From positions 22,586 through 86,585 of IMG/VR virus record IMGVR_UViG_2681813421_000002: 64,000 bases of DNA, one strand, 5' to 3'. Position 1 is the first letter of the stretch. Each line of letters begins with the position of its first letter. Under the pieces are notes generated by a model. It did no database searches. It was not told the origin of the DNA and saw nothing but the letters and a program-made list of their open reading frames with translations. This document shows, one piece after another, positions 4,037-32,451 of this stretch. Source of the DNA: a virus. Taxonomy: Duplodnaviria; Heunggongvirae; Uroviricota; Caudoviricetes. The position numbers were made by a program, and so were the translations under genes.

Positions 4037-4186
4037 AGGTCGATCTGTCAGGTATCGAAAGGAAGATTTTCGGGAGATTGTGATTTTGGATGAAGGAGGG
4101 GGAATTCATAAAATGCACTTGCGCACAGTGCAACAGTGCGCTATAGTTATGGCATTCGGTAATCATCACGGAGGATCAAATGACTA

Positions 4187-4489
4187 ATGACCAAAAAAAT
4201 TAACATAAAGGATTTCAGGGATGCGTGGCTTGATGATTTTTTTGAATTTTCAACACCACATAGAAAGATACCTCCTGATATTCATATGACATTGTCACGG
4301 AAGTTGGACATTATCAATGCCGCAACTACCTGTAAGGATTTAAGATCACCACCAGGTAATCGGTATGAGGAACTGTCAGGGAAGCTAAATGGCTATTCAT
4401 CAGTAAGGGTGAATAAGCAATATAGGTTAATTTTTAAGTGGGTTAACGGAAAGGCCGAGGACTTGTATCTCGACCCTCACAAATACTAA
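4187..4489 (+). CDS. higB: HigB toxin (plasmid-maintenance killer family, Vibrio/Rts1 type)
   Basis: 100 aa; motifs RKL.I..AA....DLR.PPGNR.E.L.G.L.G..S.RVNKQYRLIF.WV.G...YLDPHKY match HigB-type RelE-fold toxins. Confidence 0.8.
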   Translation: MTKKINIKDFRDAWLDDFFEFSTPHRKIPPDIHMTLSRKLDIINAATTCKDLRSPPGNRYEELSGKLNGYSSVRVNKQYRLIFKWVNGKAEDLYLDPHKY

Positions 4490-4559
4490 AACAGATACCC
4501 GGTTACGGACCGGGTTCTGACCAGAGTCCACTTAATACGCACGCTAGTAAGGGCAAAAA

Positions 4560-4898
4560 ATGAAACAGGCAACCAGAAAACCGACGACCGTAGGTGATAT
4601 CCTGCTGTACGAATACCTGGAGCCGTTAGAGCTGAAGATCAACGAGTTAGCAGAAATACTTCATGTTCATCGTAACACCGTAAGTGCTCTTGTTAATAAT
4701 AATCGTAAGCTAACGATGGATATGGCATATCGCCTGGCAAAAGCATTCGATACTTCTGTAGATTTTTGGATTAATCTCCAGACCGCAGTAGACCTGTGGG
4801 AAGTCGAAAATGACATGCGCGTTCAGGAAGAGTTAAGTCGTATCAATACTGCTGAAAAATTTATTTCTCAGCGGAACCTGAATAAAAAAGCAGCCTGA
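4560..4898 (+). CDS. higA: HigA antitoxin (XRE-type HTH)
   Basis: 112 aa; VGDILLYEYLEPLEL...HVHRNTVSALVNN HTH region, toxin-first gene order characteristic of higBA. Confidence 0.8.
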   Translation: MKQATRKPTTVGDILLYEYLEPLELKINELAEILHVHRNTVSALVNNNRKLTMDMAYRLAKAFDTSVDFWINLQTAVDLWEVENDMRVQEELSRINTAEKFISQRNLNKKAA

Positions 4899-7317: not shown

Positions 7318-7639
7318 TTTCTATCTCCGGTTCCGCGCTTGCGTAATCACGGATCTTGTTCCTCAGCCATGCCACATCAGGAAGAGTTAACGTGGTCCCT
7401 GCGGGCATTTCTTCCATTTCTGACTCATGGCCCACCAGCACCCGGAATACCCAGCGCAAATCTGCATTGCCATACGCCCTGTAGGCTGCAAGGTCTGAAC
7501 GATATACTTCATCAATCTTTATCGTGTACTGGAAATTATCAGAGTGATACTCCGATACCCGCTTAATCATTTCCTGGTGAAACAGCGCACGAAAAATATC
7601 GTCTTCAATGTACCTATCGTCGAGTCTGCTATAGCCCAT
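7310..7639 (-). CDS. Hypothetical protein
   Basis: 109 aa ORF overlapping start of downstream gene by 8 bp. Confidence 0.4.
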   Translation of the reverse strand: MGYSRLDDRYIEDDIFRALFHQEMIKRVSEYHSDNFQYTIKIDEVYRSDLAAYRAYGNADLRWVFRVLVGHESEMEEMPAGTTLTLPDVAWLRNKIRDYASAEPEIENA

Positions 7640-7822
7640 AACAAAGCCTCTCAGTCATAACCTGGTGGAAACTGTATGCAGGGTGTGAAATGCGAGAAAC
7701 AGACAGGCCACCAGTTCAGGGGGATGTGGTTCATAAATCCCCTCACTGGTGACAAGTGACTTTCATTAATCTTTATGCGGGGGCCAGCTTCATTTGCTGG
7801 CATTAGATTAAAAATTAAACGG

Positions 7823-7957
7823 AGTGAATGACATGGATGTTATCTTCGAATTATTAATGCTAATTGATCTGTTTATGAACGCTTCATTGACCACGCAAAT
7901 ACTGGCGTCAATATTTTTGTTACTCTTCTACCTGGTATTGAGGGAGTTAACAAAGCT
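7823..7957 (+). CDS. Small hydrophobic peptide (44 aa), possible membrane-active small protein
   Basis: ATG preceded by GGAG at about 8 nt; MDVIFELLMLIDLFMNASLTTQILASIFLLLFYLVLRELTKLLM; not in the supplied ORF track (below its size cut-off). Confidence 0.25.
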
Positions 7958-7967
7958 ACTAATGTGA

Positions 7968-8621
7968 TCAAAGTATCACGGTATCTTCATCAACTTCTTT
8001 CCCAGCCAGTGACTTTGGCTGGGAGGTGCCTGCTTTAACTTTTTCATGCCCAATAATGGACAGGAACGAAGCGAGTATGCCTGTTTTTTGCTCTTTCTCG
8101 ACTGTACCGATCATCTGCTCTACGTAATCCGCACTGGCAACGTTGTGGTATACGGTCGCGTAGCAACACAGGACCATCAGAATATGTTCCGGCCTGATAT
8201 CCTGCCAGTTCACCCGGTAGACTTCTTCTCCGTTACCGTTGTATTCGGTGTCAACGATGGAGTCAGGGATTTCGAAAGCACCTTTGTTATTTTGCGGCAG
8301 GGATAATAGCTTCTGGAGTTTTAACTCTCTGTATCTTTCCATCCCGACGATGATTGCTGCTCTGCCATCGGCATGACGGGTCTTGAGAGTCACCTGGCTT
8401 GCTCCGGTGCCAGCGGAGATCGTTGGCGTTATTTCGTCTACCAGTACCTTAAATTTGCTTTTCCGCAGGGCTGCTATAGCTGGAGGAATTTTTTGCTTTT
8501 GCTCCAATGCTGACGCGGGAAGGGGTTTTACTTCGTTAATAATGAGAGCACCGTCTTTCAGTATTGCAGTGAGCATTTGAGGCTTGCTGGTGGTCAGGCT
8601 GAATATTGCGATCTTTTCCAT
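7968..8621 (-). CDS. Hypothetical protein
   Basis: ATG at 8619-8621 preceded by GGAGG; the longer track ORF (to 8663) would start on a GTG inside an upstream terminator hairpin. Confidence 0.5.
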   Translation of the reverse strand: MEKIAIFSLTTSKPQMLTAILKDGALIINEVKPLPASALEQKQKIPPAIAALRKSKFKVLVDEITPTISAGTGASQVTLKTRHADGRAAIIVGMERYRELKLQKLLSLPQNNKGAFEIPDSIVDTEYNGNGEEVYRVNWQDIRPEHILMVLCCYATVYHNVASADYVEQMIGTVEKEQKTGILASFLSIIGHEKVKAGTSQPKSLAGKEVDEDTVIL

Positions 8622-23659: not shown

Positions 23660-24049
23660 ATGGGCTTCCCTTCTCCTGCGGCGGATTATGTTGAAAGCCG
23701 AATTTCTCTTGATCAGCAGATAATTAGACATCCTTCAGCGACCTACTTCATGCGGGCAGCTGATAGCCATCACCGTGAGGGAATATTGCAGGGAGCTTTG
23801 CTGGTGGTTGATTCCTCGCTTACTCCGGTTGATGGTTCTCTGCTTGTGTGCGCTATGGAGGGTGAATATTGCATAAAGAGATACAGGAAGTATCCGCGCC
23901 AGCACCTGGAGGACTTAAGCACCGGGAAGAAAGAGGCGTTACCAGTAGATGACGATGGATACACGGGCAGTAATGCTGTTTTTGGTGTGATCACTCATGT
24001 CATCAATGATGCCCGAAGTGGGGAATTTGATGATTGTCCGGTTATTTAA
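23660..24049 (+). CDS. humD: HumD, UmuD-prime homolog (S24 LexA-like peptidase fold)
   Basis: 129 aa; FPSPAADYVE.RI.L.Q..I.HPSATYF motif of UmuD, lacking the N-terminal pro-segment. Confidence 0.8.
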   Translation: MGFPSPAADYVESRISLDQQIIRHPSATYFMRAADSHHREGILQGALLVVDSSLTPVDGSLLVCAMEGEYCIKRYRKYPRQHLEDLSTGKKEALPVDDDGYTGSNAVFGVITHVINDARSGEFDDCPVI

Positions 24050-24121
24050 GCTGCAAAGTGCTGGTGCTTTATGCCTGTGAAGTTTATAATTGTGTACACA
24101 TAACGAGTACACGAGGTGTTT

Positions 24122-24343
24122 ATGCAATCCATTAACTTCCGTACCGCGCGTGGCAACCTTTCTGAAGTGCTCAACAATGTTGAAGCCGGGGAAGAGGTTG
24201 AAATCACCCGCAGAGGCCGTGAGCCAGCAGTAATTGTCAGCAAGGCTACTTTTGAAGCCTACAAAAAAGCGGCGCTGGATGCCGAATTTGCATCCCTGTT
24301 TGACACCCTGGACTCCACCAACAAGGAACTGGTTAACCGATAA
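24122..24343 (+). CDS. phd: Phd antitoxin
   Basis: [73 protein letters not shown] matches P1 Phd as I recall it. Confidence 0.9.
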
Positions 24344-24723
24344 TGAGGCATATATCACCGGAAGAACTTATTGCGCTTCATGATGCGAATATAAGCCGCT
24401 ACGGCGGCCTGCCGGGAATGTCAGATCCGGGCAGGGCAGAGGCCATTATCGGGAGAGTTCAGGCCAGAGTTGCCTACGAAGAGATCACCGACCTTTTCGA
24501 AGTCTCCGCCACCTACCTGGTGGCTACGGCGAGAGGGCATATATTCAATGATGCCAATAAGCGTACCGCGCTAAACAGTGCGCTGCTATTTCTACGCCGT
24601 AACGGTATACAGGTATATGATGATCCCGTGCTGGTGGAGCTTGCAGTGGGGGCTGCAACTGGTGAAATCCCCGTATCTTCAGTAGCGAAAAAACTACGTG
24701 AACTATATGGTTCCAATATTTGA
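24343..24723 (+). CDS. doc: Doc toxin (Fic-fold kinase)
   Basis: 126 aa, start overlaps phd stop; matches P1 Doc in sequence, length and gene arrangement. Confidence 0.9.
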
Positions 24724-24755
24724 AAAGAAGCCCGCTCAACCAGGCGGGCTTCTTA
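24724..24755. terminator. Hairpin between convergent doc and terminase-like genes (weak bidirectional terminator)
   Basis: GAAGCCCGC...GCGGGCTTC stem; flanking A/T runs are short. Confidence 0.35.
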
Positions 24756-24758
24756 CTA

Positions 24759-25853
24759 TCACTCAATGATTTTTTCTGCTGTCAGCCAGCTAATTTCTTG
24801 CCTGTCTTTCGGCGGTTTTAGCATGTGGGCGTATTCAGCGACATTCTCCCACGGAATTGTTTTTGCCCACTCAACGATAGCATTGTGATCTGCAGTGAAG
24901 AGTGGAATGGTGTGCGATTTCAACCATTCTAATGTCGTGACGCCATGTTTTTTGGCGTGGTGCTGCGCATGATGCCGGGCTATCACTCGTAATGGTATTG
25001 TCCATTCACTACCATCAGGCATCGAAAAGCGCATTGTCTTCGGCATATCTGATTCAAGAACAGCCTCCCTAATACCAGGGAACTCACCAAGAATCATACG
25101 ACGATAGTCATCACTATTTCGCCCGCCATACCTTTCGGCAAAATGATCAAGATATTCTTGGGTAATAAATGGTGAATCCTCCGCACTCAGCTTAATGGCT
25201 TTATATACACCACTCGGATTATCTTCAGCTAAAGCACGTCCATGATGTGAATCATAAAAAAAGCCTATTTCCTCTGGTGACGGAATTGAAGTGAGCAATA
25301 TGCGTGAATCACCACTAGTCATGCTTGCCCACACAATGCTGTATGCCCGATCGCTGATATGTGCGGAATCCACAATAATGAATAAAAGATGGTCGGCGTA
25401 GTGACCTGCAATGCTATCTTCATAGTTAAGGCGGAAGTTACAAAAGCACATTCCCCAAAATTCATTGAACATCAGACCGCTATCACCGACCTTAAAATAC
25501 TCAATGATAAAAGGTTGTTTTTTCAGCAATGCCTCCCAACATTGCCACACATATGCAACAATTCCTCTTTTGCAAACATTTGATTTTGGATAAACAATTA
25601 CTGTCCGGGAATCAGGATACATAATCGTATAAAGGGTACTAATAACAGCAAGCACTTGCGGTCGTCCGATCCCATACGGAGTGGTGACAGTAGCTTTTGC
25701 ATTATTGGGCTGTATAGCTTCAACAATTTGTTGTTGCTGGTGGCTTAAATCAATATCAAACAATTCTTTTGCTGCCAGTACCCAATTGTCTTTATATTTC
25801 TCCACCAGCGACAGCCAGCGCGGATCTTTATAAATATTGCTCTTAGTCGCCAT
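24759..25853 (-). CDS. Terminase large-subunit-like ATPase paralog with degenerate Walker A/B motifs
   Basis: Aligns with PacB-like N-terminal domain (SHQQQQI..., FYDSHH..., NPxG) but Walker A GHGTGKS is replaced by PYGIGRP and Walker B ILDEASGIS by IIVDSAHIS; start taken at MATKSNIYKD. Confidence 0.6.
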   Translation of the reverse strand: MATKSNIYKDPRWLSLVEKYKDNWVLAAKELFDIDLSHQQQQIVEAIQPNNAKATVTTPYGIGRPQVLAVISTLYTIMYPDSRTVIVYPKSNVCKRGIVAYVWQCWEALLKKQPFIIEYFKVGDSGLMFNEFWGMCFCNFRLNYEDSIAGHYADHLLFIIVDSAHISDRAYSIVWASMTSGDSRILLTSIPSPEEIGFFYDSHHGRALAEDNPSGVYKAIKLSAEDSPFITQEYLDHFAERYGGRNSDDYRRMILGEFPGIREAVLESDMPKTMRFSMPDGSEWTIPLRVIARHHAQHHAKKHGVTTLEWLKSHTIPLFTADHNAIVEWAKTIPWENVAEYAHMLKPPKDRQEISWLTAEKIIE

Positions 25854-26610
25854 CTGCCACTTCCTTAACTTCTTCTTTGGCCTGTTCTGCAATCGCCGCA
25901 CGGCATTTCGCCCTGGCTGTAGCGATTGCTTCAGCTCGCACATCGTCTGGAATCGTTGACGTGATATACATATCCAGTTCTTCGGCACGGAATACTGTTT
26001 GGTCCAGATATTCGCGTAGCATCCAGGTAAATTCGAAATCACACGCGATAATCTCTGCGCCACCTTCTGCACCATTTGGGAAATGAATAAATGCCTGTTT
26101 AGCCAAACCGATAACACGACATGCGGTTGCCAAAACAGCGACAACCAGGTTTACATTTTCACACGCTACGGGCTGGTTAACGCCGGAGATTACTCCATTT
26201 AACTGTCGGTTATATGGAAGGTAGTTTGAGATGCGTTCTACGCGCCATGTGCCAGTCAGGCTGCCATTTTTAAATATAATTGGTGTAACGGATAGCCCAA
26301 GCTCGCGTATAAGTCGTTGCGCTATAGCAGGATCATTAAACAGGTCTAATGCTACACATTCGAAAGACTGCGCAAGGGCAAACAGTTCTTCCAGAGAGTA
26401 GTCTTTGCCCCTGGCGGTGATGTAACGACGAACGCCGCTGTCTGCATCACTCCATATAGCTACGCCATGCTCTTCATTCAGCTCTTCATTAAAGCCGAGA
26501 TACGTCATGATAGTGCGTTCAATCGTGTCAAACGGCAGTGACATGTCGGCGTTAACAGCCACCAGCAGGCCATTACGCAAGCGGTATTGAATTGTTTTAG
26601 TGCTTTCCAT
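25843..26610 (-). CDS. Hypothetical protein
   Basis: 255 aa; stop overlaps start of the terminase-like paralog. Confidence 0.45.
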   Translation of the reverse strand: MESTKTIQYRLRNGLLVAVNADMSLPFDTIERTIMTYLGFNEELNEEHGVAIWSDADSGVRRYITARGKDYSLEELFALAQSFECVALDLFNDPAIAQRLIRELGLSVTPIIFKNGSLTGTWRVERISNYLPYNRQLNGVISGVNQPVACENVNLVVAVLATACRVIGLAKQAFIHFPNGAEGGAEIIACDFEFTWMLREYLDQTVFRAEELDMYITSTIPDDVRAEAIATARAKCRAAIAEQAKEEVKEVADGD

Positions 26611-26616
26611 GTCAAA

Positions 26617-27057
26617 TCACTCCACAACAAACCAGTCACAGGCCAGCAGGTCGCCAACTGAAGGCACCCACGGAACAACTACACCTTGTGCATTTTTTAA
26701 GGCGAAATAAGCACCATACGGAACGAGGTCGCCGGGGAAATATCCCTTAATGGCTTCCATTCGTGCCGGGTACTGTCCTTCAGGAACCAGCCAGCAGAAT
26801 TGGTTTTCGCCGTTCCACCCGCGTCGAGCAACTTTCTTGCCTTCCTTCAGCCACATCAGCGCGTCTGAAAAGTCGGCTGCTTCAAGGTCGATTTCTTCTT
26901 GCTGGGTGGTGATGCCACCAGCAGAAATAGTTACGCTCCCGGTAAGATTAATCATCACGCCGTTGTCATCCGTAATGATGACCGTGGTTCCATTTTTTTT
27001 GTGAGCTTTGTATTTGGGACGGAACTTAAAAAGCTCTTTCGTTGCCATGTTATTCAT
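26617..27057 (-). CDS. DUF2829-family protein (Tad2-like fold) with N-terminal extension
   Basis: 146 aa; FSDALMWLKEGKKVARRGWNG ... VGDLLACDWFVVE signature. Confidence 0.55.
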   Translation of the reverse strand: MNNMATKELFKFRPKYKAHKKNGTTVIITDDNGVMINLTGSVTISAGGITTQQEEIDLEAADFSDALMWLKEGKKVARRGWNGENQFCWLVPEGQYPARMEAIKGYFPGDLVPYGAYFALKNAQGVVVPWVPSVGDLLACDWFVVE

Positions 27058-27071
27058 AGTCTTTTCTCTGC

Positions 27072-27566
27072 TTATAACTTTTCGTACTGAAGCGGTGAAC
27101 GCTTAATTTCAAAGTGGCCTTCCGATGTGCTACCAAAGCCACCAGCACCACGCTCCGTTTCGTTGAGTTCCTCAACCTCGACTAGTGAGACTTGTTCAAC
27201 ACGCTCAAAAATTCCTTGCATGACAGCCATTCCAGGCTTGAGACAAACGCCTTCCCCGCCGGGATCAGTAATCAGTTTTGCCATGATTTCGCCGCGATAA
27301 TCGGAGTCGATAATTCCTACGCAGTTAGCCAGGCGAGTATGTTTTTTGCAGCCCAATCCTGATCGCGGATAGAGTTTCAGACACCAGCCGGGCGGGATCT
27401 CCATAGCCAGTCCGGTATACACCCACCAGCTTGAGGAAATTGCACCATTGCTATCGACGCATGGTTTTATTTCAACAGCCTCAAAATCCATCGCCGCCGA
27501 TCCGGAGGTGGCATAAGCTGGAAGTTTTGCTGCCGGATGTAGGCGTTTCACTTTTACGTAAATCAT
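27072..27566 (-). CDS. dut: dUTP diphosphatase (dUTPase)
   Basis: 164 aa; motifs PRSGLG, GIIDSDYRGEI, RGAGGFGSTS. Confidence 0.8.
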   Translation of the reverse strand: MIYVKVKRLHPAAKLPAYATSGSAAMDFEAVEIKPCVDSNGAISSSWWVYTGLAMEIPPGWCLKLYPRSGLGCKKHTRLANCVGIIDSDYRGEIMAKLITDPGGEGVCLKPGMAVMQGIFERVEQVSLVEVEELNETERGAGGFGSTSEGHFEIKRSPLQYEKL

Positions 27567-28039
27567 TGTTTTTTAGCTCTCTGCGTGAAGGTGTAAACCC
27601 GACGTTTGATATGTGGAACGGTAGGAACAGGAAGACAGGAACTTTCAATAACTCCTTGCTCATCCAGCGATCGCACCGCCCGCAAGAACTGCGACGTGTC
27701 GCCGCCAAACTGGCGGGCATAGGTGCTGCCGTTATGAAGTATTTGAGCTATTACCCGAGTTTTTGTCTGGCTGTCACGATATGCGAATAGCCGCACGGCC
27801 TCTTCTGGCGCAATCGCTAACTGATAGCCTTTCCCGGCACGGTGTCGAATGAATCCATGCGCCAGTAGGTTTTTGAGTTCGTTACGAGTGCGAACAGATC
27901 CGTAACCCAGGAAGTGTGGATTGATAACGACTGGCTTAAACCATTCCGTAGGTGCTTTAGCTAATAGAGCTAACAGCTTCCCGGATAATTCTGGATAGGA
28001 AGACGGGTAACAATTCAGAGATGGGTAATAAGTTTTCAC
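27563..28039 (-). CDS. Hypothetical protein
   Basis: 158 aa ORF in operon. Confidence 0.45.
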   Translation of the reverse strand: MKTYYPSLNCYPSSYPELSGKLLALLAKAPTEWFKPVVINPHFLGYGSVRTRNELKNLLAHGFIRHRAGKGYQLAIAPEEAVRLFAYRDSQTKTRVIAQILHNGSTYARQFGGDTSQFLRAVRSLDEQGVIESSCLPVPTVPHIKRRVYTFTQRAKKQ

Positions 28040-28380
28040 CGACGCCCCCTTGCAGGATATCGACCTGCATTAGTATCCGGTGCAATAAAGCCGGTAGTGG
28101 GGCGAGTGAAAGCGAGATTAATCTTCTCGACCATAGTGCGATAATTTTCCTGATAGTGGGCCAGGAGTTTTTCGGCGGCAATGATGGTTACTTTCCGGAC
28201 GTAGCTTTCTGCTTCCTCCAGATTTCGCCAGTTTTTTTCGAGGGTAAACACAGGGACGGCCTCAAGCCCGGTCATGATGCCGAACACAACGACAGCATGA
28301 CTGTTCTTAACACCAGCGGCGAAGGTTACGGTGTAACCATCCACCTTGAAGCGTCTTGATTCCGTGATTTGACTCTGCAA
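28036..28380 (-). CDS. Hypothetical protein (first gene of operon downstream of cre)
   Basis: 114 aa ORF immediately downstream of operator-like motif. Confidence 0.45.
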   Translation of the reverse strand: MQSQITESRRFKVDGYTVTFAAGVKNSHAVVVFGIMTGLEAVPVFTLEKNWRNLEEAESYVRKVTIIAAEKLLAHYQENYRTMVEKINLAFTRPTTGFIAPDTNAGRYPARGRR

Positions 28381-28435
28381 AGCACCCTCCTAAATAGGCG
28401 AGGGTACTTTACAGCAAAGATGTTAATCTAAAAAG

Positions 28436-28455
28436 ATGTGTTAGAAATTTAATTT
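28436..28455 (-). promoter_or_regulatory. Operator-like motif (AATTAAATTTCTAACACATC on minus strand)
   Basis: Between cre stop and start of the 114-aa gene. Confidence 0.5.
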
Positions 28456-29482
28456 ATAAATCCATCAGGCGGCTATTAGCCCCCACAGACACGCCGCCAC
28501 GGCGCAGATACCGCATAAGTGTTTCCGGTTTCTTCCAGGTTCCTTCCTGCATAATCTCCACCATAGAGACCTGCTTTTCAGCCATATCGATAGCGGCCCC
28601 GACGCGTGCACTATGCCCGGTCCACGTCCGGTATCTTCCTTTGTTTGGCGTAGCATCTCCTTTATTCAGCAACACCCAGGCGTCGCTGAATATTTTCTCC
28701 ATTGCAGGTGCAGTAAGGGGCGTTATCGTGATCCTGGCCTTATTGCTACGGTGTATCGGCGGGAACAGCACTGCGTCAGGATGTTCGCGAAGCCCGGAAA
28801 CATCCAGCCAGTCATTCAGCACAGCGGTAGTGCGACGGGAAAGCACCTTATCAAGCCCGGCGGCGGTCGTTATTGTCTTCGTGTGTGAAATATGTAGCGT
28901 GACAGTGTCACCTGTTTGGTCCAGATCTCCTACACGAATACGCGAGATTTCCGACATACGCATCAGCGTATTGTATGCAACAAAGAGAAAAGCCCGGTTG
29001 CGCAGGTCCACCAGCCGTTCAGACCTGGACAACAGGACGTCGAGCAGTTTCAGATCGTCCCACCGCAGCGGTATAGCCTGGCCTGTTCGTTCGCCTTTTT
29101 CAGTTGCCGCTTCGCGCCGGATGCGCCGCATAGCCAGAGAAACACTTTTATCATCCGAAAGTGGTGGAAGGCCACAATGCGAAAGCAGCATGTTCAGCAT
29201 GGCGTAGTGCTTATCAATGGTGGTCGAAGCCAGATCGGCATCATGCAGCTGAAGAAAATACTCGCGGGCCATTTCTGGTGAGATCGGAAACCAGGCAAGC
29301 TGGCGAGCGTGACACCAGCGCGCCCAGGAATGAAACACCAAACGGAGGTCGCGCAGAGTATTCGGCGCATAAGCTCCCTGGTCATTCATGAACCGCATAA
29401 AGTTTTCTGCGGCTTCCTGGTACTCTTTGCCAATGTTGCGCAGAAAACCACCGGAACTGCCAGAGATAATTAATTCACCCAT
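28454..29482 (-). CDS. cre: Cre-family tyrosine recombinase (diverged from P1 Cre)
   Basis: 342 aa; colinear with P1 Cre including catalytic-region motifs (AYNTLMRMSEISRIRVGDL; WTGHSARVGAA; GTW; MRYLR) but many substitutions. Confidence 0.85.
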   Translation of the reverse strand: MGELIISGSSGGFLRNIGKEYQEAAENFMRFMNDQGAYAPNTLRDLRLVFHSWARWCHARQLAWFPISPEMAREYFLQLHDADLASTTIDKHYAMLNMLLSHCGLPPLSDDKSVSLAMRRIRREAATEKGERTGQAIPLRWDDLKLLDVLLSRSERLVDLRNRAFLFVAYNTLMRMSEISRIRVGDLDQTGDTVTLHISHTKTITTAAGLDKVLSRRTTAVLNDWLDVSGLREHPDAVLFPPIHRSNKARITITPLTAPAMEKIFSDAWVLLNKGDATPNKGRYRTWTGHSARVGAAIDMAEKQVSMVEIMQEGTWKKPETLMRYLRRGGVSVGANSRLMDL

Positions 29483-29633
29483 GAAACTATTTGACCTCTA
29501 TATACAGATGACGCTACGCGAAAAATATAAAAATGACAGGGTAGCTATAAGTTAATTTTCAAAATACAAGCCTTTGATTCGAGGCACGTATTTTCAGTGA
29601 TGTCAACACTGTTCATCTACACATGATTATAGC

Positions 29634-29667
29634 CTAACTTTAAATAATGCCAATTATTTAAAGTTAT
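29634..29667. other. lox-like recombination site (13-bp inverted arms, 8-bp spacer)
   Basis: CTAACTTTAAATA-ATGCCAAT-TATTTAAAGTTAT; same architecture and partial identity with loxP, located about 150 bp upstream of cre. Confidence 0.65.
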
Positions 29668-29762
29668 AAAATGCCGATTTTTTTTAATCCATCATAGATT
29701 GATGATGACCAGTAACACGTTGCCTTCATGGTCTTTAATTTGCGAAGTGTGGTTTCTACGGT

Positions 29763-29779
29763 TGGTTTTCTAAAATTGA
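29763..29779 (+). promoter_or_regulatory. Operator-like motif (TTGGTTTTCTAAAATTG)
   Basis: Variant core TTTCTAAAA upstream of repressor-candidate gene. Confidence 0.35.
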
Positions 29780-29845
29780 TGACAAAAAATCACAGTTCGA
29801 TCCTTTACTCACCCTGTTATTCGACATAAATTTGTCATAGTAATT

Positions 29846-29864
29846 TTATGTTAGAAAACTAAAT
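29846..29864 (-). promoter_or_regulatory. Operator-like motif (ATTTAGTTTTCTAACATAAA on minus strand)
   Basis: 13 bp upstream of the start codon of 29877-30914. Confidence 0.5.
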
Positions 29865-29876
29865 CGAGTAGGAATA

Positions 29877-30914
29877 ATGAGTAAGAAGTCGATCGAGAAA
29901 GAGTACAAACGGTTCCTGCAAACCGCTGAACGGTGGAAAGAGCTGGTGGTCGCAAACTCTGTTTTCCATGATACCAGTTATGCTGGCGAGGAATTCCGCC
30001 ATGTTGCATTAACGCATGACCAAAACATATTAGAAGAAGCTGAAAAATGTCTTGCTGAATGGAAAGCCTTCGTTGACATGTGCCGCGATGCCGACGGCAA
30101 AGCGTCGAACATTGTTGAGTCTGTATATTCTCCGATCCCATTCATCATTGAGGACACCAATCAAAGCACGCATGTCGTTGTGCAAAGCGCTACAACAACA
30201 CGTACATTTACACGTGAACAATTGCTAAAAAAATACGACAAAATCATAAAGAAAAGCCTGAAAAATAGGGTTTTTTCTCAAATCGTAGGTGCTCTTGAAG
30301 AAGAACAGCGCTTCTTTGAAGCTGAGCCTGAAGGCGAGATCTACCGGGCGCGTAAAGAGGCATATACAGATGTTGTGCTGACAACAAACATCGAAGGCAG
30401 CAATGCCCTTTCTCGCTTTAGAGTTGGCGCACATGGCGCATTGGTTTTCGCAAGACTACCGAAGACAACGATCCCCGTTGTCAATAATGTTGGTGAACGC
30501 CGGAGCATTACAATTTATTCTGGCGTCGAATCGGTACCATGCAGCCTTCTCGGCGATTTTAACTTATATCGTGTTCGTGACCTGGAAAAACACCAGCCAA
30601 GCTACGTTGCGAAGTCGTACATCTTAAGGAACATCGATATTCGCAATGAAAGCCTTAAGCAGAAATCCGCTAAGATGCTGGAGGATGCCGATCCGGCTAT
30701 TCGCCATATCATTGAACGTAAGATACGTACATCACGTGAAGCAATGGCAAGGTTGGATAAAATGGATCTGGAATTGTTAGACGTAATGATGGCCTCTGGA
30801 GACGACCTGACCGGCATTAAACTGAATGAAGCTCGTAAAAAATACGGCAAAGCAATCGAAGAACGTTACGGATACACATTCCCCCAAACGCAGTACGCCG
30901 CGAAGCTCTGGTAA
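29877..30914 (+). CDS. Candidate C1-type immunity repressor (positional analog of P1 c1)
   Basis: 345 aa; lies between lox/cre and pacB, convergent with pacB, flanked upstream by two operator-like motifs; I do not recognise the protein sequence itself. Confidence 0.4.
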   Translation: MSKKSIEKEYKRFLQTAERWKELVVANSVFHDTSYAGEEFRHVALTHDQNILEEAEKCLAEWKAFVDMCRDADGKASNIVESVYSPIPFIIEDTNQSTHVVVQSATTTRTFTREQLLKKYDKIIKKSLKNRVFSQIVGALEEEQRFFEAEPEGEIYRARKEAYTDVVLTTNIEGSNALSRFRVGAHGALVFARLPKTTIPVVNNVGERRSITIYSGVESVPCSLLGDFNLYRVRDLEKHQPSYVAKSYILRNIDIRNESLKQKSAKMLEDADPAIRHIIERKIRTSREAMARLDKMDLELLDVMMASGDDLTGIKLNEARKKYGKAIEERYGYTFPQTQYAAKLW

Positions 30915-30923
30915 TCACAACCG

Positions 30924-30946
30924 GCCCCGCATCGCGGGGCTTTTAT
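30924..30946 (+). terminator. Rho-independent terminator
   Basis: GCCCCGC-ATC-GCGGGGC followed by TTTTAT. Confidence 0.55.
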
Positions 30947-32451
30947 ATATCCAGATCCGGCATTTCGATATCCGCCAGAACCTGATCTCGGAAAGTTGCC
31001 ATTTCGGCACCAATATCTTCATTAGCAGGCACATAGTCCACCAGCATAGTGAAGCAGTAGGTATCCCATCGGTCAGGCGATTTGATGTTTAGCTTTTGCC
31101 GCATGTGCTCTTTGCGCATCATCGCCATTTTCCCTTCCTCATTCAGTAAAAAGGGGATTTTTGACGCTTGCTCTGCCGTTTTAGGGTCACTGTCTATCCG
31201 CATACGCCCTGACTTTATGGCATCACGCGCCATAATATTTGCGTAGGCACGCTGATTAACAAATCGCTCCCTGTCTTTGTTCGCAAACATGGGTTTTCCC
31301 CACCGAATACGTACCGGGTTCGCACCACGACGTACCAACTGCGCACACGTATCAGAACCAAAACCATCGGCATCAACCGCGATTGTTATATTCGGGTATT
31401 TTTCCGGCGTACATTCGTTATATATAAAGTCAGCAAAGGCCAATGGGTCCATAGTGCCAGGCATCTCCATTACCTTAAAGTTAACAACGCGCCGCTTATC
31501 CCTGTGACCAGATACCTTGCAGATGTTGAGGACCGACTTATCTCGCCCATTACCAACGTCAGCCGTTGCCACCCATCCCCAGTTTTTCTCCAACAACACC
31601 TTGCGGCGAGCAGCGCGATCGCATTCATCACGACCAAGCAAATAGCCGTTAATTTCTCGTGGGAACTGACCAAGCACCTTGACCATATACTCAATAGAAT
31701 CGCGCCCACCATATTCCAGAAGCTTCTGCCTGATGAATTGTGGTGTGACGAACGGTGATTCTTCCGAGTTAAGAACAATTGCTGTCCAGATCCCTTTCGG
31801 GTTGTCTGGGGTTTTTGCTTGAGAATGGTGCGAATCGTAGAAATAACCACTTGGCCTTGTTGGCTGGGATAGCATCAACATCCGGTTATCTTCTTCAGTA
31901 AGAGCACCGGTCATTACGCCGATCGCCTTATCAGATATACCAGATGCTTCATCCAGAATTAGAAGCAAATGTGCCGCATGTTCCCCCGCCAGCGCTTCTT
32001 CGTTGCCGAGTCGATAACCTTTGCAGAGAACTTCCCAAATCCCCTTACGGGAGCGCTCATAAAACATGGTGTCAGAGAGGACAAAATAGGTCTGCAACCA
32101 CCCATGACGCTTAACTGCATTCGCCCAATACTGTTTAACGTATTTGAATACGCCTGTTTTTACCTGGCCTATCTTGTTAGCAACAATGATGACACGGGCA
32201 TCGGGGAACAGGATCATAAAAATCAACAGCAACATCGCGGTAAGGGACGACTTCCCAGTTCCGTGTCCGGACGTGACGGTCGTCCTACTCCCCGTTTCCT
32301 GCACGGACTGAATGATCTGCTGCTGCTGGTGGGAGGGGAACATCCCAAAAATATCGACAACAGCCTGGGTAAAGTTGTAGCGGTATTTGATTACCATATC
32401 GCGCCAGCGTGGATCGCTGGTGACGCATTTAATCTTGCGCCCTCCAGCCAT
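30943..32451 (-). CDS. pacB: Terminase large subunit (PacB-like)
   Basis: 502 aa; Walker A GHGTGKSS, Walker B LLLILDEA, C-terminal nuclease-type acidic residues. Confidence 0.85.
   Translation of the reverse strand: MAGGRKIKCVTSDPRWRDMVIKYRYNFTQAVVDIFGMFPSHQQQQIIQSVQETGSRTTVTSGHGTGKSSLTAMLLLIFMILFPDARVIIVANKIGQVKTGVFKYVKQYWANAVKRHGWLQTYFVLSDTMFYERSRKGIWEVLCKGYRLGNEEALAGEHAAHLLLILDEASGISDKAIGVMTGALTEEDNRMLMLSQPTRPSGYFYDSHHSQAKTPDNPKGIWTAIVLNSEESPFVTPQFIRQKLLEYGGRDSIEYMVKVLGQFPREINGYLLGRDECDRAARRKVLLEKNWGWVATADVGNGRDKSVLNICKVSGHRDKRRVVNFKVMEMPGTMDPLAFADFIYNECTPEKYPNITIAVDADGFGSDTCAQLVRRGANPVRIRWGKPMFANKDRERFVNQRAYANIMARDAIKSGRMRIDSDPKTAEQASKIPFLLNEEGKMAMMRKEHMRQKLNIKSPDRWDTYCFTMLVDYVPANEDIGAEMATFRDQVLADIEMPDLDI

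What the first reader, a model, noticed from the sequence alone, without database searches (positions are those of the whole stretch)
26617..27057. DUF2829 (Tad2-like) protein with an N-terminal extension in an operator-controlled operon
The C-terminal ~70 aa carry the DUF2829 signature (WLKEGKKVARRGWNG ... GDLLACDWFVVE). DUF2829 proteins include Tad2, which sequesters Thoeris signalling nucleotides. The extra ~75-aa N-terminal region (Thr/Gly-rich) is not part of the minimal domain. Its operon neighbours are dUTPase and other small early-type genes, a context consistent with counter-defence.
Basis: partly seen in the sequence, partly recalled or inferred. Interest (0 to 1): 0.65.

Follow-up and report, generated by a model that had tools for sequence, protein, structure and literature searches.

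The report
Truncated Tad2 immune-signal sponge gene
This gene of a D6-type E. coli phage-plasmid encodes a genuine Tad2-family "sponge" that probably soaks up a bacterial anti-phage alarm molecule; its odd N-terminal extension is the leftover of a second domain lost by an in-frame deletion, and the gene family was already flagged in these elements.

Summary
ORF 26617-27057 (-) encodes 146 aa, and residues 62-146 are a strong Tad2/DUF2829 domain (Pfam 81.6 bits, E 6e-23). The AF2 model (pLDDT ~95) matches only solved Tad2 structures. The best match is ModTad2, the His-ADPR sponge (46% identity). Core ligand residues are conserved (W81, N82, G83, W130, S133, D136).

The window is a phage D6-like plasmid prophage. 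RefSeq annotates this gene as DUF2829, and a DefenseFinder survey reports Tad2 in 93% of D6-type and 56% of P1-type phage-plasmids.

The "operator" claim is plausible. TTTCTAACA occurs 12 times (0.53 expected), and one copy lies just upstream of the gene cluster.

Verdict: a new member of a known kind, of modest interest. The more interesting lead is the lost OB module, which elsewhere is fused to three known sponge families.

The parts
26617..27057 (-). Tad2-like gene (146 aa plus stop), the short allele shared with phage D6 orf114
   Evidence: The exact protein is seen on 527 contigs.
26620..26874 (-). Tad2/DUF2829 domain, aa 62-146. Core ligand residues are W81, N82, G83, W130, S133 and D136.
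   Evidence: Pfam E 5.9e-23. PDB sequence hits: ModTad2 8e-21, HgmTad2 and SPO1 Tad2. AF2 pLDDT ~95. Foldseek: all 24 significant hits are Tad2 structures. Residue mapping uses.
26887..26997 (-). Linker, aa 21-57 (KNGTTVIITDDNGVMINLTGSVTISAGGITTQQEEID). It is the counterpart of the C-terminal trimer-spike segment of phage L Dec.
   Evidence: Profile of the relatives' N-terminal regions against Dec 6e3c gives E 1.7e-7, aligning profile 60-131 to Dec 57-129. The single-sequence search gives E 0.0057. The segment has low confidence in the monomer model. The Dec spike is residues 99-134 (PMC11398494).
26998..27057 (-). Head, aa 1-20 (MNNMATKELFKFRPKYKAHK). This is the retained N-terminus of the ancestral long form.
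   Evidence: Alignments with the 225-aa relatives.
26993..27000 (-). Deletion junction. An A8 run on the coding strand was created by loss of 237 bp (79 codons, the OB-fold core) between two A5 runs.
   Evidence: DNA alignment with pTB423 and SJ46. The junction is the same in D6 and P0133. P0140 carries an independent second deletion.
27072..27566 (-). dUTPase gene immediately upstream in the same cluster
   Evidence: PF00692 E 1.7e-14 and PHROG 135.
27563..28039 (-). 158-aa ORF of unknown function (D6 orf116), start/stop-overlapping with its neighbours
   Evidence: PHROG 6669, no Pfam match.
28036..28380 (-). 114-aa ORF (D6 orf117), first gene of the cluster. It has a TTG start preceded by AGGAGG.
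28437..28455 (-). Operator-like motif (aaATTAaaTTTCTAACAca) between the dre stop codon and the first gene of the cluster
   Evidence: TTTCTAACA occurs 12 times in the window against 0.53 expected. The shared flanks give the consensus AAATTAGTTTTCTAACAyA. Ten of the 12 copies lie between ORFs of at least 90 aa.
25843..26610 (-). IsaA-like gene (255 aa), which follows the Tad2-like gene in both D6-type and P1-type elements
   Evidence: PHROG 2326. D6 and SJ46 annotation. P1 IsaA.
24759..25853 (-). Last gene of the cluster: a 364-aa paralogue of the ATPase half of the putative large terminase, with degenerate Walker motifs
   Evidence: BLASTP 37% identity over 258 aa, E 3e-56, against 30943-32451. 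PHROG 5902 and phrog_2.
24730..24745 (-). Terminator-like hairpin just after the last gene of the cluster

Best explanation
The gene encodes a Tad2-family sponge. By analogy with solved Tad2 proteins (inferred), the C-terminal 85-aa domain assembles into a homotetramer whose inter-protomer pockets bind and sequester a TIR-made ADP-ribose-derived alarm molecule. The downstream effector of a signalling defence system is therefore never switched on. The domain belongs to the ModTad2-like branch. The most likely ligand is therefore His-ADPR, the type II Thoeris signal. A second pocket for another small signal, as in ModTad2 (cUMP/cCMP of Pycsar), is possible.

The ~60-aa N-terminal extension is a vestige. 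The ancestral ~225-aa protein carried a Dec-like OB-fold plus spike module. In this lineage a 237-bp in-frame deletion between two A-runs removed the OB core. That left 20 head residues and the spike-like linker, which probably act only as a flexible leader.

The gene is co-transcribed with dut and small unknown genes in a tightly packed minus-strand cluster. The cluster lies behind a copy of the element's dispersed operator-like motif. This fits silence in the plasmid-prophage state and early expression on infection or induction.

Shown here: domain identity, fold, residue conservation, the deletion, and the motif enrichment and position. Inferred: tetramer formation, the ligand, the timing of expression and repressor binding.
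For: Family and fold:
- Pfam Tad2-like, E 5.9e-23.
- PDB sequence matches to ModTad2 (8e-21), HgmTad2/AcrIIA7, SPO1 Tad2 and SptTad2.
- AF2 model with pLDDT ~95 over aa 62-146.
- Foldseek against the PDB: the 24 significant hits are all Tad2 structures. The top hit is ModTad2 bound to His-ADPR (9eib, E 1.7e-10, 46-48% identity); apo ModTad2 gives TM 0.88-0.89.

Pocket residues:
- Ligand contacts described for SPO1 Tad2 (W25, N26, W73, S76, D79) and HgmTad2 (W21, N22, G23, W87, S90, D93) align to W81, N82, G83, W130, S133 and D136.

ModTad2-like branch:
- 46% identity across the whole 88 aa with a single one-residue gap, so the beta2-beta3 insert is essentially the same length. Other characterised Tad2s give 36-39% with indels.
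- The position equivalent to SPO1 T78 is Thr in the two gcADPR binders. It is Ser, Ala or Gly in the three type II Thoeris inhibitors, and Gly here.
- ModTad2 binds His-ADPR and cUMP/cCMP.

Vestigial N-terminus:
- Searches show the deletion.
- Searches show Dec homology of the long forms.
- Searches show no confident fold and no family match for the remnant.
- A 158-aa AcrIIA7 with an N-terminal extension has been crystallised (9kzr), so N-terminal extensions are compatible with a crystallisable Tad2-family protein.
- The allele is intact and common: 527 contigs.

Regulation:
- Motif statistics and position.
- In P1-type relatives the same gene sits directly downstream of ssb, behind the annotated C1 operator Ossb.
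Against: No binding or anti-defence assay exists for this protein or for any P1/D6 homologue that I could find. The one large functional survey explicitly removed Tad2 homologues carrying a Dec (6E3C) or PF21825 domain.

Specificity cannot be read from sequence. Tad2 homologues bind 3'cADPR, His-ADPR, N7-cADPR, cyclic dinucleotides or cNMPs, sometimes several at once. The small-residue rule rests on five sequences. Several peripheral pocket residues differ from every characterised homologue (N122, Q124, V128). The HgmTad2 cGG contacts R31 and N85 are not conserved (V91 and a gap).

The tetramer and its pockets were not modelled. No sigma-70-like promoter passed the scan in the 73-bp gap with the motif. 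Transcription may therefore read through from the strong promoter-like site inside rox, upstream of dre. Repressor binding to the motif is untested. The spike-like remnant could still oligomerise.
Confidence: 0.7

Rival explanations
1. It is a functional Tad2 sponge, but its main ligand is not His-ADPR. It could be 3'cADPR (type I Thoeris), N7-cADPR (type IV Thoeris, which occurs in E. coli), or it could be a multi-specific sponge like Tad2_71.
For: Most tested Tad2 homologues inhibit type I Thoeris. One homologue (Tad2_71) inhibits types I, II and IV. The ADPR-contacting core residues are common to all of these. Type IV Thoeris was described from E. coli 328.
Against: The nearest characterised homologue, ModTad2, does not inhibit type I or type IV Thoeris. 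The Thr that hydrogen-bonds adenine in SPO1 Tad2 (T78) is Gly here, as in type II inhibitors.
Confidence: 0.3
2. The retained N-terminal segment is functional. The Dec-spike-like stretch (aa 21-55) still oligomerises, as a trimer or other beta-spike. This would change the valency or assembly of the Tad2 domains, or it would bind a partner.
For: The segment aligns, through the profile, to Dec residues ~97-129, which form the trimerising spike. Its strand-like pattern is conserved between two divergent linker types in relatives. Two independent deletions (the window type and P0140) removed the OB core but kept this segment.
Against: The monomer model gives it low confidence, and the remnant alone matches no family. 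Dec spike folding is slow and capsid-templated. A threefold spike clashes with the tetrameric symmetry of Tad2. Many Tad2 proteins work with no such segment.
Confidence: 0.2
3. The short allele is a decaying, functionless relic. The locus is deletion-prone and the gene is on its way out, as in P1, which lacks it entirely.
For: Several deletion derivatives exist: one with the Tad2 domain removed (P0123), one with a mid-gene deletion (P0078), a dut-Tad2 fusion (P0028) and OB-core deletions. P1 itself has ssb followed directly by isaA. Only 56% of P1-type elements carry Tad2.
Against: The deletion is in frame and keeps the start, the ribosome-binding region and an intact Tad2 domain. That domain is nearly identical (one Asp/Glu difference) to the domain of the long forms. 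The exact protein occurs on 527 contigs, and the same junction is in phage D6, Salmonella and E. coli plasmids. 93% of D6-type elements keep Tad2.
Confidence: 0.07
4. It acts as an anti-CRISPR (AcrIIA7-like) or, through the Dec-like ancestry, as a virion decoration or structural protein.
For: AcrIIA7 carries the same Pfam domain. The N-terminal module of relatives is homologous to a capsid decoration protein.
Against: AcrIIA7 activity against Cas9 could not be reproduced. E. coli is not known to carry type II-A CRISPR (own knowledge). The OB domain that contacts capsids in Dec is deleted here. The gene lies in an early-type cluster with dut and a recombinase, not among late genes.
Confidence: 0.03

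Closest known systems
ModTad2 (MoTad2), Tad2 homologue of a Myroides odoratus prophage (PDB 8V3E, 9EIB)
   Same: Same Pfam domain and same fold. Identity is 46% over the full 88-aa domain with a one-residue gap, so the beta2-beta3 insert is essentially the same length. The core Trp/Asn/Ser/Asp pocket residues are conserved, and the SV-small-D motif is shared.
   Different: ModTad2 is a bare 88-aa domain, whereas this protein has a 60-aa N-terminal remnant. The host is a different phylum. The His-ADPR and cUMP/cCMP binding shown for ModTad2 is untested here. About half of the residues differ, including residues around the pockets.
SPO1 Tad2 (gp34.65) and HgmTad2/AcrIIA7
   Same: Same family and fold, and the same conserved contacts to the ADPR diphosphate and ribose.
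   Different: Identity is 36-37%, with inserts of different length. SPO1 T78, H71 and D67 are replaced by G135, V128 and Q124. The HgmTad2 cGG-pocket residues R31 and N85 are absent.
Long (about 211-233 aa) DUF2829 proteins of P1-type and D6-type phage-plasmids (e.g. pTB423 WP_121841009, SJ46 gp048)
   Same: The gene is orthologous, with the same start, the same linker, a nearly identical Tad2 domain (one Asp/Glu difference) and the same downstream isaA-like gene.
   Different: They keep the 79-aa OB-fold core that the window allele lacks. In complete E. coli genomes the short junction is found in 9 of 189 carriers. Some relatives carry alternative cassettes in the beta2-beta5 insert.
Phage L decoration protein Dec (PDB 6E3C)
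   Different: The OB fold, which contacts the capsid in Dec, is deleted in the window protein. There is no evidence of capsid binding. The genomic context is early genes rather than late genes.
Sponge-sponge fusion proteins (Tad2-Acb4, Tad2-Sequestin/PF21825)
   Same: Relatives of this protein occur as Tad2 + PF21825 (P0036, P0103). The OB-like module is itself found fused to Tad2, to PF13876 (Acb4) and to PF21825.
   Different: The window protein carries only the Tad2 domain plus a remnant. The OB-like module has not been shown to bind any signal.

Membership tests
Tad2 / DUF2829 (PF11195) sponge family | Profile match above the curated threshold | tested here: met
   81.6 bits against a cutoff of 25, E 5.9e-23, covering profile positions 2-73 of 73.
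Tad2 / DUF2829 (PF11195) sponge family | Tad2 fold | tested here: met
Tad2 / DUF2829 (PF11195) sponge family | Conserved ligand-contacting residues (SPO1 W25, N26, W73, S76, D79; HgmTad2 W21, N22, G23, W87, S90, D93) | tested here: met
   They align to W81, N82, G83, W130, S133 and D136. Peripheral contacts differ: T78 to G135, H71 to V128, D67 to Q124.
Tad2 / DUF2829 (PF11195) sponge family | Homotetramer with pockets at protomer interfaces | not testable with these tools
   Only monomer prediction is available. It needs AlphaFold-Multimer or AF3, or SEC-MALS.
Tad2 / DUF2829 (PF11195) sponge family | Sequesters a defence signalling molecule and inhibits the cognate system | not testable with these tools
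   I found no assay for any P1/D6 homologue. Dec-domain fusions were excluded from the published survey.
ModTad2-like (type II Thoeris / His-ADPR) branch of Tad2 | Closest similarity to ModTad2, with the same beta2-beta3 insert architecture | tested here: met
   46% identity with one single-residue gap, against 36-39% with indels for the other characterised Tad2s. ModTad2 is the top hit by sequence and by structure.
ModTad2-like (type II Thoeris / His-ADPR) branch of Tad2 | Small residue in place of SPO1 T78. This is my own tentative marker, drawn from five characterised sequences. | tested here: inconclusive
   The window has SVGD. Type II inhibitors have SVSD, SQAD or SQGD, and gcADPR binders have SQTD. 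The sample is too small to be a rule.
ModTad2-like (type II Thoeris / His-ADPR) branch of Tad2 | Binds His-ADPR (and cUMP/cCMP in a second pocket) | not testable with these tools
   The residue lists for the ModTad2 pockets were not available in the text held.
Phage L Dec-like OB-fold + spike module (for the N-terminal extension) | OB-fold domain (Dec residues 12-89) | tested here: not met
Phage L Dec-like OB-fold + spike module (for the N-terminal extension) | C-terminal trimerising spike segment | tested here: inconclusive
   Window aa 21-47 align to Dec ~97-122 only via the long-form alignment. The remnant alone matches nothing and is modelled with low confidence.
P1-type C1 repressor operator | Asymmetric ~17-bp motif repeated many times, lying between genes | tested here: met
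   There are 12 copies against 0.53 expected, with shared flanks. Ten of the 12 lie between ORFs of at least 90 aa. One copy is at 28437-28455, upstream of the cluster.
P1-type C1 repressor operator | Match to the P1 operator consensus ATTGCTCTAATAAATTT | tested here: not met
   No match with up to 3 mismatches. If the motif is an operator, it belongs to a repressor of different specificity.
P1-type C1 repressor operator | Bound by the element's repressor and overlapping a promoter | not testable with these tools
   No promoter-like site passed the scan in the 73-bp gap. It needs EMSA, ChIP or RNA-seq.
AcrIIA7 anti-CRISPR | Inhibits Cas9 | not testable with these tools
   It shares the Pfam domain, but the published activity was not reproducible.

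The most novel reading that the evidence does not exclude
The OB-fold module that this allele has lost, and that most P1/D6 relatives keep, may itself be an unrecognised immune-signal sponge or a sponge-associated domain. It forms a very large phage family with no Pfam model: 2,129 clusters at 50% identity. It occurs alone or fused. Its Pfam-identifiable fusion partners are exactly three known sponge families: Tad2, Acb4 (PF13876) and Sequestin (PF21825). The same 'fused to a known sponge' logic led to the discovery of Sequestin. On this reading the long proteins are dual sponges. The window protein is then a natural single-sponge derivative, and the recurrent independent in-frame losses of the OB core reflect selection, for example escape from a host system that senses that domain.
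Probability: 0.15. Interest if true: 0.65.

Novelty: new member of a known kind. Interest (0 to 1): 0.33.

Why it matters
For the window itself the result is mostly tidy annotation. A widespread E. coli/Salmonella phage-plasmid lineage carries a ModTad2-like sponge. That gives a concrete and cheap test of whether D6/P1-type elements evade type II Thoeris, and perhaps Pycsar, in enterobacteria. P1vir lacks the gene and would serve as the null background.

The wider value lies in what the comparison exposed. There is a natural allelic series at one locus: OB + Tad2, Tad2 only, OB only, and alternative insert cassettes. The OB-like module's Pfam-identifiable fusion partners in the sampled set were all known sponge families. 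Published surveys removed these fusions before testing, so they remain unexamined.

Tried and rejected
- I first suspected that P1's IS1 had disrupted this gene, giving isaA/isaB. Rejected: P1 simply lacks it. ssb is followed directly by isaA, and IsaB is unrelated.
- A search for the P1 C1 operator consensus in the window gave 0 matches with up to 3 mismatches.
- The word-index homologue search with the N-terminal module returned only 11 close hits. The exhaustive search was needed.
- Pfam and NCBIfam give nothing for the N-terminal module or for the neighbouring unknown genes. PHROGs gives only unknown-function families.
- The 60-aa remnant alone matches no family.
- I looked for the lists of ModTad2 residues that bind His-ADPR and cUMP, and for the table of 18 tested Tad2 homologues. 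They were not in the text held, and no supplements are held. A residue-by-residue check of the ModTad2 pockets was therefore not possible.
- I checked whether the published 'Lockin' sponge family is the OB-like module. Its description (hexameric beta cog) and the gene starts shown in the primers do not obviously fit. This stays unresolved.
- The promoter scan found no sigma-70-like site in the gap that holds the operator-like motif.

Full report
**What the window is.** The region around the finding is 98% identical to Escherichia phage D6 (NC_050154). It is up to 99.8% identical to ~90-kb non-mobilisable E. coli plasmids. The element is therefore a D6-type plasmid prophage, a relative of P1. 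On the minus strand the gene order is:
- the Cre-like recombinase of D6 (28454-29482), with the rox site at 29635-29666 upstream;
- a 114-aa ORF (28036-28380);
- a 158-aa ORF (27563-28039);
- dut (27072-27566);
- the gene in question (26617-27057);
- an IsaA-like gene (25843-26610);
- a 364-aa terminase-like paralogue (24759-25853).

Starts and stops overlap or lie 6-14 bp apart. A terminator-like hairpin follows the last gene.

**The observation.** The 146-aa ORF is real and both quoted motifs are present. Pfam's Tad2-like model (PF11195) matches aa 62-145 at E 5.9e-23, with 81.6 bits against a cutoff of 25. Sequence search of the PDB finds only Tad2 proteins: ModTad2 (8e-21), HgmTad2/AcrIIA7, SPO1 Tad2 and SptTad2. 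An AlphaFold2 model built on 62 homologues gives pLDDT ~95 for the domain and 42-66 for the first 60 residues. In Foldseek against the PDB all 24 significant hits are Tad2 structures. The top hit is ModTad2 bound to His-ADPR (9eib, E 1.7e-10, 46-48% identity). Two numbers need correcting: the domain is ~85 aa and the extension ~60 aa.

**Pocket residues and likely ligand.** The contacts reported for SPO1 Tad2 are W25, N26, W73, S76 and D79 (10.1101/2023.05.01.538930). Those for HgmTad2 are W21, N22, G23, W87, S90 and D93 (10.1101/2023.11.15.567273). They align to W81, N82, G83, W130, S133 and D136.

Peripheral contacts differ: SPO1 T78 becomes G135, H71 becomes V128 and D67 becomes Q124. The HgmTad2 cGG contacts R31 and N85 are not conserved.

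The domain is 46% identical to ModTad2 over the full length with a single one-residue gap. Against the other characterised homologues it is 36-39% identical, with indels. ModTad2 does not inhibit type I or type IV Thoeris. It sequesters His-ADPR (type II Thoeris) and, in a second pocket, cUMP/cCMP of Pycsar (10.1101/2024.01.03.573942; 10.1101/2024.10.24.620036; 10.1101/2025.08.24.671296).

The motif around SPO1 T78 reads SQTD in the two gcADPR binders. It reads SVSD, SQAD or SQGD in the three type II Thoeris inhibitors whose sequences I could recover, and SVGD here. This is suggestive, but it rests on five sequences. Tad2 specificity is known to be plastic. I therefore rate "a Tad2 sponge" as very likely and "His-ADPR is the main ligand" as only moderately likely.

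**The N-terminal extension.** Most homologues are 211-233 aa long. Aligning the window gene with pTB423 (225 aa) and SJ46 shows the same start and ribosome-binding region, the same first 20 codons and the same last 126 codons. The window lacks 237 bp (79 codons) in between. The end points lie in two A5 runs, and the deletion leaves an A8 run at 26993-27000. Phage D6 and a Salmonella variant share this junction. Another protein (P0140) carries an independent deletion of nearly the same segment with different end points.

An independent group saw the same relationship. [quoted passage not shown] The Thr/Gly-rich extension is therefore 20 head residues plus the spike-like linker of a Dec-like module whose OB core has been deleted. 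On its own the remnant matches no family and has no confident fold. A crystallised 158-aa AcrIIA7 also has an N-terminal extension (9kzr), so such extensions are compatible with a crystallisable Tad2-family protein.

**How common is the allele?** The exact 146-aa protein is recorded on 527 contigs. Among complete E. coli genomes, 189 of 5,426 carry this Tad2 domain at the DNA level, almost always on plasmids. Only 9 of them have the short junction. In PLSDB, 183 of 229 matching plasmids cover at least 80% of the long gene. The short allele is thus a minority but successful lineage, with an intact Tad2 domain. This argues against simple decay.

**Regulation.** The P1 C1 operator consensus is absent. 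A different motif, TTTCTAACA, occurs 12 times against 0.53 expected by chance. Its shared flanks give the consensus AAATTAGTTTTCTAACAyA. Ten of the 12 copies lie between ORFs of at least 90 aa. Two of them flank a replication-initiator-like gene. One copy (28437-28455) fills the gap between the recombinase stop codon and the first gene of the cluster.

In P1-type relatives the orthologous gene sits directly after ssb, behind the annotated C1 operator Ossb. Both contexts therefore fit repressor-controlled early expression. However, no promoter-like site passed the scan in the 73-bp gap, and repressor binding is untested. "Operator-controlled" is plausible rather than shown.

**Comparison with what is known, and novelty.** RefSeq already names the gene a DUF2829 protein. 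A 2025 survey of phage-plasmids reports DefenseFinder hits to "Tad2 AcrIIA7 (anti-Thoeris)" in 93% of D6-type and 56% of P1-type elements (10.1101/2025.09.12.675607). P1 itself lacks the gene. I found no experimental work on any P1/D6 homologue. The protein is therefore a new, uncharacterised member of a known family. The specific points added here are its ModTad2-like affinity and the deletion origin of its extension.

**The more interesting lead.** An exhaustive search with an OB + linker-only variant (P0123) finds 2,129 clusters at E ≤ 0.001. These are stand-alone proteins of 83-110 aa, or fusions with the module at either end. Among 62 longer members, Pfam recognises a partner in 15: Tad2-like in 6, PF13876 in 5 and PF21825 in 4. 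PF13876 is Acb4, and PF21825 is the Sequestin sponge family. Sequestin was discovered precisely because it is fused to Tad2 and Acb4 (10.1101/2025.07.12.664507). The remaining partners are very diverse. By the same reasoning the OB-like module is a candidate sponge or sponge-associated domain. This is an inference only. The window allele no longer carries that module.

Relatives also show alternative cassettes in the beta2-beta5 insert, the region that forms the second pocket in HgmTad2 and ModTad2. These cassettes sit within otherwise near-identical proteins. One cassette also replaces the conserved Asn (GWNG becomes GWKG). That pattern is what one would expect from switching of ligand specificity.

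**Verdict.** The gene is best explained as a ModTad2-like signal sponge with a vestigial N-terminus, sitting in a probably repressor-controlled early cluster. Interest is modest for the window feature itself. It is higher for the domain-fusion network seen in its relatives.

Noticed in passing
window 24759-25853 (-): The last gene of the cluster encodes a 364-aa paralogue of the ATPase half of the putative large terminase at 30943-32451 (37% identity over 258 aa, E 3e-56). Its Walker-type motifs are degenerate: GHGTGKS becomes PYGIGRP, and LLLILDEAS becomes LLFIIVDSA. The C-terminal ~100 aa are unrelated. It is absent from phage D6 itself but present in pTB423. It could be a decoy for terminase-sensing defence systems, but this is untested.
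   Followed up: partly
window 789, 12252, 12910, 17481, 28439, 29849, 38908, 39064, 40313, 41356, 51257, 52456 (start of each TTTCTAACA): A dispersed asymmetric motif, consensus about AAATTAGTTTTCTAACAyA, occurs 12 times against 0.53 expected and lies mostly between genes. It is probably the operator of this element's C1-type repressor, and it differs from the P1 operator consensus.
   Followed up: partly
window 29635-29666 and 29626-29653 (-): The site TAACTTTAAATAATTGGCATTATTTAAAGTTA matches, from memory, the rox target of the D6 Dre recombinase. D6 annotates half a rox site at the end of its record. The only strong sigma-70-like site in 24500-30000 (TTGGCA-16-TATAAT, 11 of 12 matches) overlaps it and points towards the recombinase gene.
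   Followed up: no
relatives: P0010/P0015/P0031 and P0058/P0076/P0035 compared with the window type: Three alternative cassettes occupy the beta2-beta5 insert of otherwise near-identical P1/D6 Tad2-like proteins. They are PEGQYPARMEAIKGYFPGDLVPYGAY (the window type), PDKQGASRLTPIKHAANGDLEINFDSPLAPYGAH and LAGCVNFHDIQVPYGDH. The third also changes GWNG to GWKG. The pattern suggests recombinational switching of ligand specificity.
   Followed up: partly
relatives P0028, P0078, P0123, P0140: The locus is deletion-prone. Variants include a dut-Tad2 in-frame fusion (241 aa), a mid-gene deletion that destroys the first half of the Tad2 domain (117 aa), an OB + linker protein with the Tad2 domain deleted (135 aa) and a second independent OB-core deletion (149 aa).
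   Followed up: partly
L004 (phage P1 NC_005856) 7570-8532; L003 (SJ46) 4048-4893: P1 lacks the Tad2-like gene: ssb is followed directly by isaA. The 56-aa stretch upstream of the Tad2-like start in SJ46 (MVQTPTKARTRKQ...) is in frame with the downstream gene in both phages. It is annotated as the N-terminus of IsaA in P1 and of the DUF2829 protein in SJ46. P1 serves as the Pycsar-sensitive test phage in a published assay.
   Followed up: partly
relatives; query P0123 (OB + linker): The Dec-like OB module is a very large phage domain family with no Pfam model: 2,129 clusters at E <= 0.001. In a sample of 62 longer members it was fused to Tad2 (6), PF13876/Acb4 (5) and PF21825/Sequestin (4). 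Its conserved motif is PxYKCHKxVxAxKI...KHxPxxGGYxVxYxDGYxSYSPxxAFExGY.
   Followed up: partly
window 26993-27000: The deletion created an A8 homopolymer inside the coding sequence (CAC AAA AAA AAT). Such a run could be prone to slippage frameshifts. I did not look for length variants.
   Followed up: no
window 23660-24723 (+): A humD-like S24 peptidase gene (23660-24049) and a phd/doc addiction pair (24116-24343 and 24343-24723) lie next to the cluster and converge on it.
   Followed up: no
phages Bacillus JL and Shanette (hits H54-H57): In unrelated Bacillus phages the feature annotations under the Tad2-like tblastn match also include a dUTPase, so dut is adjacent there as in the window. This may be coincidence, since both are early genes.
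   Followed up: no
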